Positions 18,310 to 18,856 of a stretch of 29,428 bases of DNA are shown here, piece after piece. The position numbers were made by a program, and so were the translations under genes. How positions within the stretch are numbered: position 1 is the first letter of the stretch; every line of letters begins with the position of its first letter. The stretch is taken from the IMG/VR virus record IMGVR_UViG_3300037264_009888; one strand, given 5' to 3'. This stretch comes from a virus. The notes under the pieces were generated by a model. That model saw only the letters and a program-made list of their open reading frames with translations. It made no database searches and was not told the DNA's origin.

Positions 18310-18726
18310 TCAGTTCTCCACGTAGTTCAGGACGGGAAGCCTCTTCCGCTGGGCAACCCACCGAATGGAGTCGAGTGCCCCGTACTCGCCACCCTCCCCG
18401 TCGTCGCCGCAATCCCAGTTCGAGACGCCCTTGTCCCCGCCGGGGTCGTAGTCCCAGGCGTCCAGTATGGCCTTTTGCTTTCGGCTCAATCCCGCAGGCT
18501 CAAGGAGGGGATTCCTGGCGGCGTGGCTGCGGAGCCACGTGACGACCTCCTCGACGGCTATGGAGAGCATGTACCTGTCGCTATACTCCCCCTCTCCGGC
18601 GTGGACTGTCTGCTTGGTCCGCTCCAGCTCGTTGACGACCTCGCGGATGGTGACGCCCCTGCTGCCGGCCTTCGAGGCCATGCGGTTGAAGCAGCGGCTG
18701 ATGTTGGTCGTGTTGGCGTGGCCCAT
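18310..18726 (-). CDS. hypothetical protein (138 aa, MGHANTTNISRCF...)
   Basis: AAGGAGGG RBS before ATG at 18724-18726. The ORF-track Met at 18756 lies upstream of the promoter -10 and is unlikely to be used. Confidence 0.55.
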   Translation of the reverse strand: MGHANTTNISRCFNRMASKAGSRGVTIREVVNELERTKQTVHAGEGEYSDRYMLSIAVEEVVTWLRSHAARNPLLEPAGLSRKQKAILDAWDYDPGGDKGVSNWDCGDDGEGGEYGALDSIRWVAQRKRLPVLNYVEN

Positions 18727-18856
18727 GTGCCCTCCTTGACCGCCCAAGTATAGCACATGGATGGGAGGATGTCAACTCAGTCCGTGTTGGCGTGGCCCAT
18801 GTGCCCTCCTTGACCGCCCAAGTATAGCACATGGATGGGAGGATGTCAACTCAGTC
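18709..18856 (-). promoter_or_regulatory. perfect 2x74-bp tandem duplication, each copy holding a consensus sigma70 promoter (TTGACA-17-TGC-TATACT), RBS and ATG
   Basis: Copy 1 is 18709-18782 and copy 2 is 18783-18856, identical by eye. Copy 1 has -35 at 18775-18770 and -10 at 18752-18747. The distal copy opens a 7-codon mini-ORF MGHANTD* ending just before the proximal -35. Confidence 0.7.

What the first reader, a model, noticed from the sequence alone, without database searches (positions are those of the whole stretch)
18709..18856. Exact 74-bp tandem duplication yielding two stacked consensus promoters and a 7-codon mini-ORF
Each copy contains a textbook TTGACA-17-TGnTATACT promoter, an AAGGAGGG RBS and ATGGGCCACGCCAACACG. 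The proximal copy continues into the 138-aa gene. The distal copy terminates after MGHANTD, right at the proximal -35. The perfect identity implies a very recent duplication, for example a promoter-dosage adaptation or replication slippage. A tiny upstream ORF ending inside a promoter could also couple translation to transcription initiation.
Basis: seen in the sequence. Interest (0 to 1): 0.5.

Follow-up and report, generated by a model that had tools for sequence, protein, structure and literature searches.

The report
Recent tandem duplication of a promoter
An uncultivated, phage-like genome carries a perfect back-to-back 74-base copy of one gene's promoter, ribosome-binding site and first six codons; the duplication is real and young, but it is an ordinary kind of mutation whose only sure effects are a second identical promoter and a leftover 7-codon reading frame.

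Summary
Window 18709..18856 is an exact 2.0-copy, 74-bp tandem repeat, read on the minus strand. Each unit holds the last codon and stop of the upstream 199-aa gene, TTGACA-17-TGcTATACT, AAGGAGGG and ATGGGCCACGCCAACACG. The ends of both flanking genes are conserved in their families, so both genes are intact and the MGHANTD frame is a by-product.

It is unlikely to be an assembly artefact. An independent k=31 assembly (Logan, SRR11849544) is 100% identical to the window and stops exactly 30 bases into the repeat. That is where a de Bruijn graph must branch if the repeat start has two predecessors.

None of 11 related loci has a duplication. One relative has a single promoter with the same 20-nt gap to the ATG. 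The junction has no microhomology.

Best reading: a recent, homology-independent tandem duplication of a native internal promoter, in a phage-like accessory gene array. The gene it heads has a winged-helix-like N-terminal fold. The result is two identical strong promoters 74 bp apart, with output somewhere between attenuated and about double. Adaptive dosage is possible but untested. Coupling of translation to transcription initiation has no support. Low interest: a new instance of a known kind.

The parts
18783..18856 (-). Distal copy of the 74-bp unit (R1 = 18856). It carries the native GAC-TGA end of the 199-aa gene, promoter P1, an SD and the ATG of the mini-ORF.
18709..18782 (-). Proximal copy of the 74-bp unit. 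It carries the GAC-TGA that ends the mini-ORF, promoter P2, an SD and the true start of the 138-aa gene.
18821..18849 (-). Promoter P1: -35 TTGACA (18849..18844), a 17-nt spacer, and extended -10 TGcTATACT (18829..18821). The inferred TSS is near 18814.
   Evidence: 11/12 with TG; the TSS is inferred from the usual distance of about 7 nt
18747..18775 (-). Promoter P2, identical to P1: -35 at 18775..18770 and extended -10 at 18755..18747. The inferred TSS is near 18740, so the two TSSs lie 74 bp apart.
18777..18800 (-). Mini-ORF MGHANTD* (7 codons plus TGA), preceded by SD AAGGAGGG at 18811..18804. It is a by-product of the duplication.
18310..18726 (-). 138-aa gene (SD at 18737..18730) with a winged-helix-like N-terminal domain; function unknown. 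It is the first gene of the transcription unit driven by P1 and P2.
   Evidence: (MGHA start invariant)
18851..19450 (-). Upstream 199-aa gene, with an ATGA-overlap start. Its native C-terminus ...VAD* supplies the first 6 bases of the repeat unit.
   Evidence: 11 of the 12 sequences listed end in VAD; P0021 ends VGD and P0016 has a short extension after VAD
18723..18760 (-). 8-bp inverted repeat CCATGTGC (R23-30) / GCACATGG (R53-60) that brackets the -10, the TSS and the SD. It is present in both copies (also at 18797..18834). Its significance is unknown.

Best explanation
This is a real, evolutionarily very recent tandem duplication of 74 bp in an uncultivated, phage-like genome. The duplicated segment runs from the last codon of a 199-aa gene, through a 50-nt intergenic spacer that holds a native sigma-70-type internal promoter and a Shine-Dalgarno site, to codon 6 of the next gene. 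That next gene encodes a 138-aa protein with a winged-helix-like fold and heads the following transcription unit. Because the event is a tandem duplication, both flanking genes stay intact. The junction shows no microhomology, so the event was a homology-independent illegitimate join (template switch or end-joining) rather than classical slipped-strand mispairing or recombination between short repeats. There are two consequences. (i) Two identical near-consensus promoters now have start sites 74 bp apart. That is far enough apart that one polymerase does not occlude the other promoter, and close enough that polymerases from P1 must pass a polymerase sitting at P2. The output for the 138-aa gene and its downstream operon therefore lies somewhere between attenuated and about two-fold higher. 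(ii) P1 and read-through transcripts carry an extra, probably translated, 7-codon frame (MGHANTD) that stops 1 nt before the P2 -35. This frame is a passive by-product, not a regulatory device. Shown here: the repeat, its anatomy, the intact gene ends, its absence from relatives, and the graph branch in an independent assembly. Inferred: promoter activity, the effect on expression, the mechanism of origin, and neutrality versus selection.
For: The repeat is exact. Its anatomy can be read directly on the minus strand. MGHA is invariant at residue 1-4 in 11 homologues, so the proximal ATG is the real start. Among the 12 sequences of the 199-aa family that I listed, 11 end in ...VAD, so the first GAC-TGA is that gene's native end. 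The promoter is one of a family on the coding strand: 8 sites against 2.1 expected, all on the minus strand. ATGTGCTATACT recurs at 24558..24547 (3 matches against 0.01 expected), and TTGACATCCTC..CATGTGCTAT recurs at 15774. Independent assembly: the Logan contigs of run SRR11849544 are 100% identical to the window over 3624 and 3518 bases. They end at 18827 (= R30) and at 18002. These are exactly the ends of the first repeated 30-mers of the only two repeats in the window that hold 30-mers occurring twice. None of the 11 related loci has a direct repeat within -400..+200 of the homologous position. Relative L012 has one promoter, TTGACT-17-TAGAAT, with the same 20-nt gap from the -10 to the ATG. 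The P1 transcript has no unusual structure (z = 0.00) and Rfam gives no match. Tandem-promoter behaviour at a TSS distance above 35 bp comes from PMC8830795, PMC11339919 and PMC3293061.
Against: No reads were available, so the copy number (exactly 2, or at least 2) and the allele frequency are unknown. The Logan run may be the same library that the source contig was assembled from. In that case it is an independent algorithm applied to the same data, not independent data. The branch at R30 alone would also occur if R1-30 existed elsewhere in that metagenome. Promoter activity is inferred from consensus matches only, and the host is unknown. No relative closer than about 60% protein identity exists, so 'recent' rests on the perfect identity of the copies.
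Confidence: 0.75

Rival explanations
1. Selected promoter-dosage adaptation. The two-promoter allele rose to dominance because higher expression of the 138-aa winged-helix-like protein, or of the downstream operon, is advantageous, for example in takeover or counter-defence. This would parallel gene amplification in evolving phages.
For: The two-copy allele is the one that was assembled into a 36-kb contig. The neighbourhood is an accessory or counter-defence-type array: Tad4-like, RNA ligase, phosphohydrolase and methyltransferase genes. T4 overcomes toxIN through tandem amplification that raises tifA expression (PMC9391042). Tandem core-tac promoters raise transcription stepwise up to five copies (PMC3293061).
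Confidence: 0.15
2. Assembly or library artefact. The true genome has one copy, and the second comes from mis-assembly or chimeric reads.
For: Exact short tandem duplications are a classic warning sign, and no long reads or read pile-ups could be inspected. The 148-bp repeat is about the length of one Illumina read.
Against: A single-copy locus gives a linear de Bruijn graph. The k=31 Logan assembly instead stops exactly at R30, just as it stops at the first repeated 30-mer of the (PEPT)n repeat. The duplication lies about 18.7 kb from the window start and about 10.6 kb from its end, so it is not an end-overlap of a circularised contig. An assembler with k of 76 or more cannot create the R|R junction without reads that contain it (inference from graph logic).
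Confidence: 0.06
3. Regulatory upstream ORF. The MGHANTD frame acts as a leader peptide or coupling device that tunes the proximal promoter or translation of the 138-aa gene.
For: The mini-ORF has a strong SD and an ATG and ends 1 nt before the proximal -35. In the P1 transcript, its start region (GCACAUGG) can pair with CCAUGUGC of copy 2.
Against: The frame follows automatically from the duplication end-points. The fold energy is no better than that of shuffles (z = 0.00). The frame is not conserved: relatives have neither a duplication nor a leader. Rfam finds no leader or riboswitch. Ribosomes act on RNA, and no known mechanism links termination on the mRNA to initiation at a DNA promoter 1 nt away. 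Strongly expressed minigenes of 3-8 codons are known as a burden through peptidyl-tRNA accumulation (PMC2490762).
Confidence: 0.03
4. Physical genome terminus, or a dispersed repeat. On this reading, R is a short direct terminal repeat of a linear phage genome, or a promoter cassette found at several loci, that was joined head-to-tail during assembly.
For: Short exact terminal repeats exist in many phages. The promoter belongs to a family of similar promoters.
Against: With a terminal repeat, neither ends nor concatemers produce an R|R junction, and the k=31 graph would not branch at R1-30. R begins inside one conserved gene and ends inside another. No other copy of R with at least 40/74 identity exists in the window, and the other promoters share only about 20-25 bases with it.
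Confidence: 0.01

Closest known systems
Tandem segmental amplification in evolving phages (T4 dmd-tifA amplification against toxIN; PMC9391042)
   Same: Both are head-to-tail repeats in a phage accessory region that include a promoter and can raise expression of the gene behind it. Both are young and unstable.
   Different: In T4 the whole gene plus its promoter is amplified to many copies, and the boundaries sit in 6-10 bp microhomologies. Here only the promoter, the RBS and 18 nt of coding sequence are copied. There are two copies, no microhomology, and no evidence of selection.
Native and synthetic tandem promoters in E. coli (PMC8830795, PMC11339919) and engineered tandem core-tac clusters (PMC3293061)
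   Same: Both have two same-direction sigma-70-type promoters that feed one gene. The TSS distance of 74 bp falls in the class above 35 bp, where interference comes from polymerase occupancy of the downstream promoter rather than from occlusion.
   Different: The studied cases are mostly pairs of different promoters shaped by long evolution, or designed constructs. Here the two promoters are identical copies from a fresh duplication, and each carries its own RBS and start codon.
Minigenes (lambda bar-type and synthetic 3-8 codon ORFs; PMC2490762)
   Same: Both are very short frames (here 7 codons) with a strong SD behind a strong promoter.
   Different: [quoted passage not shown] Nothing here indicates toxicity or function, so the resemblance is only formal.
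Small winged-helix transcription regulators (PerR/Fur, MarR, PadR, BlaI/MecI folds)
   Different: There is no sequence-level family match in Pfam or PHROGs. The C-terminal half, with its WDCGDDGEGGEYG motif, has no counterpart. DNA binding was not tested.

Membership tests
Simple tandem duplication (mutational class) | Two adjacent head-to-tail copies with nothing between them | tested here: met
   Period 74, 2.0 copies, start-to-start spacing 74
Simple tandem duplication (mutational class) | The flanking sequence corresponds to an uninterrupted single-copy ancestor | tested here: met
   Removing one unit restores ...VAD*-spacer-MGHANTTNIS. Both ends are conserved in their families, and relative L012 has a single promoter with the same 20-nt geometry.
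Simple tandem duplication (mutational class) | Present in the DNA molecules, not only in one assembly | tested here: inconclusive
   The independent k=31 assembly breaks exactly at R30. This is strong but indirect, because no reads were available and the run may be the same library.
Sigma-70-type promoter | -35 and -10 hexamers close to consensus with a 16-18 nt spacer | tested here: met
   TTGACA-17-TATACT with TG at -15/-14, 11/12 matches
Sigma-70-type promoter | Transcription starts there in vivo | not testable with these tools
   The support is indirect only: 8 sites against 2.1 expected, all on the coding strand. Several lie just upstream of an SD-ATG (15774, 24575, 28633, 22752 and the two copies here), and they share extended motifs.
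Microhomology-mediated segmental amplification (T4 type) | A short (about 6-10 bp) identical sequence at both boundaries, with one copy left at the junction | tested here: not met
   The base before copy 1 (A, 18857) differs from R74 (G), and the base after copy 2 (A, 18708) differs from R1 (G). That gives 0 bp of microhomology. TRF reports exactly 2.0 copies.
Leader peptide / attenuator | A conserved short ORF with alternative RNA structures or a terminator before the regulated gene | tested here: not met
   Relatives have no such ORF. The fold z-score is 0.00. No terminator-like site was reported between 18709 and 18856, and Rfam gives no match.
Phage direct terminal repeat | The repeat lies at the physical genome ends, outside genes | tested here: not met
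   The copies are adjacent, lie inside a co-directional gene array, and overlap two conserved genes.
Winged-helix DNA-binding proteins (for the 138-aa product) | A helix-turn-helix plus beta-hairpin wing fold | tested here: met
Winged-helix DNA-binding proteins (for the 138-aa product) | Binds DNA or regulates transcription | not testable with these tools
   There is no family-level sequence match, and the best BFVD match has E = 0.56.

The most novel reading that the evidence does not exclude
The 74-bp unit could be a copy-number-variable promoter cassette. Once duplicated, its 74 bp of perfect homology would let the phage population expand and contract the array by unequal recombination. The array would then act as a heritable but reversible rheostat for an early winged-helix regulator, and its 8-bp inverted repeat (a possible operator) would multiply with it. 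That would be promoter-only amplification as a phage adaptation route, distinct from whole-gene amplification.
Probability: 0.07. Interest if true: 0.45.

Novelty: new member of a known kind. Interest (0 to 1): 0.18.

Why it matters
It matters only modestly. It is a clean natural example of how one small duplication creates, in a single step, stacked promoters and a new translated micro-ORF without damaging either neighbouring gene. This is raw material for regulatory evolution in phage genomes. If the two-copy allele were shown to be selected, it would extend the amplification route to counter-defence or takeover gene dosage (known for T4 tifA) to promoter-only duplications. As it stands, it is an ordinary recent mutation in a lineage with no cultured relatives.

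A practical point also follows. Where contigs of a k=31 assembly end can serve as an indirect, read-level check of a short exact repeat when reads are not at hand.

Tried and rejected
- **Exact promoter in IMG/VR:** an exact search for the promoter found 0 matches.
- **DNA and protein searches of 50,697 isolate phage records:** no match to the locus or to either flanking protein.
- **Exact-protein look-ups for the source contig and the downstream Logan piece:** the 138-aa, the 142-aa edge-extended, the 219-aa and the 845-aa versions were not on record. Only the 199-aa and 144-aa genes gave contigs.
- **Family search of metagenome, viral and genome collections:** 8, 1 and 0 loci respectively. 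All are 56% identical or less and lie in different gene neighbourhoods, so no close relative exists to show the single-copy ancestor directly.
- **RNA element:** Rfam and tRNA scans were empty. The P1 and P2 transcripts fold no better than shuffled sequence (z = 0.00 and +0.97).
- **Operator idea:** the 8-bp inverted repeat CCATGTGC/GCACATGG occurs only inside R and is not shared by the sister promoters, so this was left as speculation.
- **Terminal-repeat and dispersed-repeat readings:** rejected on graph logic and because no other copy exists.
- **Function of the 138-aa protein:** there is only a generic winged-helix fold match, and nothing significant in BFVD.
- **Accession search:** a search for SRR11849544 in the literature found nothing.

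Full report
**1. Observation**

Window 18709..18856 is an exact tandem repeat: period 74, 2.0 copies, 100% matches, TRF score 296. No other copy with at least 40/74 identity exists on either strand of the window.

The genes here run on the minus strand. Read on that strand, with R1 = 18856, the unit is:

GAC TGA G TTGACA tcctcccatccatgTGc TATACT tgggcggtc AAGGAGGG cac ATG GGC CAC GCC AAC ACG

The promoter scan reports TTGACA-17-TATACT with an upstream TG twice, at 18849..18821 and 18775..18747. Each is 11/12 to consensus. The distal ATG (18800) opens MGHANTD and stops at TGA 18779..18777, 1 nt before the proximal TTGACA. The proximal ATG (18726) opens the 138-aa ORF that ends at 18310.

**2. 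Anatomy of the unit**

- The first six bases (GAC TGA) are the last codon and stop of the upstream gene (18851..19450, 199 aa, ATGA-overlap start). Of the 12 sequences of that family I listed, 11 end in ...VAD. P0021 ends VGD and P0016 has a short extension after VAD. In relative L017 the DNA reads gtcgctgacTAG. So this is that gene's native end.
- The last 18 bases are codons 1-6 of the downstream gene. All 11 family members start with MGHA, and most with MGHAN. So the proximal ATG is the native start.
- Removing one unit therefore restores a plain arrangement: gene A stop, a 50-nt spacer with a promoter and an SD, then the gene B start.
- The mini-ORF follows automatically from placing six codons of B in front of A's GAC-TGA.
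- The junction has no microhomology. The base before copy 1 is A against R74 = G, and the base after copy 2 is A against R1 = G.

**3. Is it real or an assembly artefact?**

The source contig (JGI, 36,216 bp) could not be fetched. However, an independent assembly of run SRR11849544 (Logan, k = 31) holds the same genome.

- Contig _223082 is 100% identical to window 22450..18827, and contig _77523 is 100% identical to 18002..14485.
- The window has only two places where a 30-mer occurs twice: the 12-bp (PEPT)n array at 17973..18059 and R.
- Both Logan contigs end exactly at the end of the first repeated 30-mer: 18827 = R30 (the sequence ends ...ccatgtgc), and 18002 = 17973 + 29.
- That is where a k=31 de Bruijn graph must branch if R1-30 has two different predecessors, namely the unique upstream sequence and R74.
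- A single-copy locus would give a linear graph with no break.
- With k of 76 or more, an assembler cannot write an R|R junction unless reads contain it. This is an inference from graph logic.
- The duplication lies about 18.7 kb from the window start and about 10.6 kb from its end, so it is not an end-overlap.

Caveats: the Logan run may be the same library as the source assembly, and no reads could be inspected. The copy number could also exceed two. I put the artefact reading at about 6%.

**4. Context**

The window is a co-directional minus-strand array of accessory-type genes:

- an RNA ligase;
- a family-2 glycosyltransferase;
- a Tad4-like protein;
- an MVP-shoulder/Vault-repeat protein of about 835-845 aa;
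- an HD phosphohydrolase;
- an HNH protein;
- a DNA methyltransferase;
- a GmrSD-like protein.

The 138-aa family occurs on contigs of 52.8 kb (an IMG/VR UViG), 94 kb and 246 kb, and on no bacterial genome scanned. No isolate phage matches. The element is therefore most likely a large uncultivated phage, but no structural gene was seen in the window.

Promoter-like sites are enriched, 8 against 2.1 expected, and all are on the coding strand. Several sit just upstream of an SD-ATG: 28633, 24575, 22752, 15774 and the two copies here. They also share more than the hexamers. ATGTGCTATACT recurs at 24558..24547 (3 matches against 0.01 expected), and TTGACATCCTC...CATGTGCTAT recurs at 15774. R therefore contains a native internal promoter that heads the unit made of the 138-aa, 130-aa, 144-aa, 71-aa and 268-aa genes.

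**5. Relatives**

No relative closer than about 60% protein identity exists for either flanking gene, and synteny is not kept. None of 11 related loci has any direct repeat within -400..+200 of the homologous position, while the same test recovers the 74-mer pair in the window. Relative L012 has one promoter, TTGACT-17-TAGAAT, with the same 20-nt gap from the -10 to the ATG. The single-promoter state is therefore the family norm, and the duplication is specific to this lineage. The perfect identity of the copies indicates that it is young.

**6. The gene behind the promoters**

**7. How it most likely works**

This section is inferred. The two identical strong promoters have start sites about 74 bp apart, near 18814 and 18740.

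- In E. coli, tandem promoters more than 35 bp apart do not occlude each other. They interfere through polymerase occupancy of the downstream promoter (PMC8830795).
- Synthetic non-overlapping tandems can be attenuated by collisions (PMC11339919).
- Tandem core-tac promoters raised transcription stepwise up to five copies (PMC3293061).

The net effect on the 138-aa gene and its operon is therefore somewhere between attenuation and about two-fold gain. It cannot be decided from the sequence.

P1 and read-through transcripts carry the mini-ORF with a full SD, so it is probably translated. Its stop lies 50 nt before the real ATG. The 135-nt P1 leader folds no better than shuffled sequence (z = 0.00), and Rfam has nothing. 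An 8-bp inverted repeat (CCATGTGC at R23-30, GCACATGG at R53-60) brackets the -10 and the SD, and it lets the mini-ORF start pair with copy 2 in the MFE fold. It is not shared by the sister promoters. I therefore treat the mini-ORF as a by-product. If it has any effect, a short and strongly expressed minigene is more likely a small cost (PMC2490762).

**8. Comparison with known cases, and verdict**

The closest known case is tandem segmental amplification in phages under selection, such as T4 dmd-tifA (PMC9391042). That case amplifies whole genes to many copies between 6-10 bp microhomologies. This locus fails that defining feature, because its junction has 0 bp of microhomology, and only the promoter and the 5' end of the gene are copied.

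This is a new instance of a known kind of event, a small tandem duplication that creates tandem promoters. Adaptive dosage remains possible (about 15%), and a copy-number-variable promoter array is a long shot (about 7%). Interest is low.

Noticed in passing
window 20180..22717 (-): An ORF of 845 aa (835 aa from the ATG, as called in the Logan contig) matches the eukaryotic major-vault-protein shoulder domain (Pfam MVP_shoulder 1e-24), a Vault_3 repeat (3e-8) and, weakly, SPFH/Band 7. It has its own promoter-like site at 22752. An MVP-like protein in a phage-like accessory array is unusual.
   Followed up: no
window 23588..23977 (-): A 129-aa ORF matches Pfam Tad4, the type I Thoeris inhibitor (3.5e-9), and phrog_9822 (2.2e-9). 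This is a candidate anti-defence gene two transcription units upstream of the duplication.
   Followed up: no
window 17973..18059 (-), inside ORF 17916..18308: A 12-bp x 7.2 repeat encodes (PEPT)n in a 130-aa protein with a hydrophobic N-terminus, which looks like a lipoprotein or secreted linker. It is the only other repeat in the window that breaks the k=31 Logan assembly.
   Followed up: partly
window 5000..7000; ORF 5463..6878 (-): A low-GC patch (53-57% against about 63-68% around it) carries a protein with a GmrSD_N restriction-endonuclease-like domain (Pfam 8e-13; phrog_1583/2598 about 5e-19). It is possibly a recently acquired cassette.
   Followed up: no
window 2540, 2965, 3645, 3991, 4303, 4734 (+); related motifs at 164, 690, 1525, 2186: A recurring motif of about 26 nt, GGGCCCCgCCCcaaGgCCGGAGGGAC, appears every 350-700 nt in the first 5 kb. 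Other recurring segments, CGTCCCTCC...GCAGGGGCCC, lie further upstream. It looks like a family of intergenic hairpin-plus-RBS elements in a differently organised gene block.
   Followed up: no
window 15746..15774, 24547..24575, 28605..28633, 22724..22752 (-): A family of near-consensus sigma-70-type promoters lies on the coding strand and shares extended sequence (TTGACAtcctc...cATGTGCTATAcTTGG) with the duplicated one. They divide the minus-strand array into transcription units.
   Followed up: partly
window 17926..17953 (-): The promoter-like site TTGATT-16-TATAAT lies inside the end of the 130-aa ORF, and its -10 ends 6 nt before the ATG of the 144-aa gene (17919). If it is active, the transcript would be leaderless. 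It may be a chance match in coding sequence.
   Followed up: no
window 18723..18760 and 18797..18834: An 8-bp perfect inverted repeat, CCATGTGC / GCACATGG, is separated by 22 nt and brackets the -10, the TSS and the SD of each copy. It occurs nowhere else in the window (4 matches against 0.75 expected). It could be an operator for the adjacent winged-helix-like protein, or chance.
   Followed up: partly
L007/L003 (Ga0210406_10000191, 94 kb), L009 (Ga0334722_10000022, 246 kb), L016 (IMGVR_UViG_3300044708_000049, 52.8 kb): The 138-aa family (MGHAN...WDCGDDGEGGEYG...) occurs only on large phage-like metagenomic contigs, among many small ORFs. It was not found in 185,579 bacterial and archaeal genomes or in isolate phages.
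   Followed up: partly
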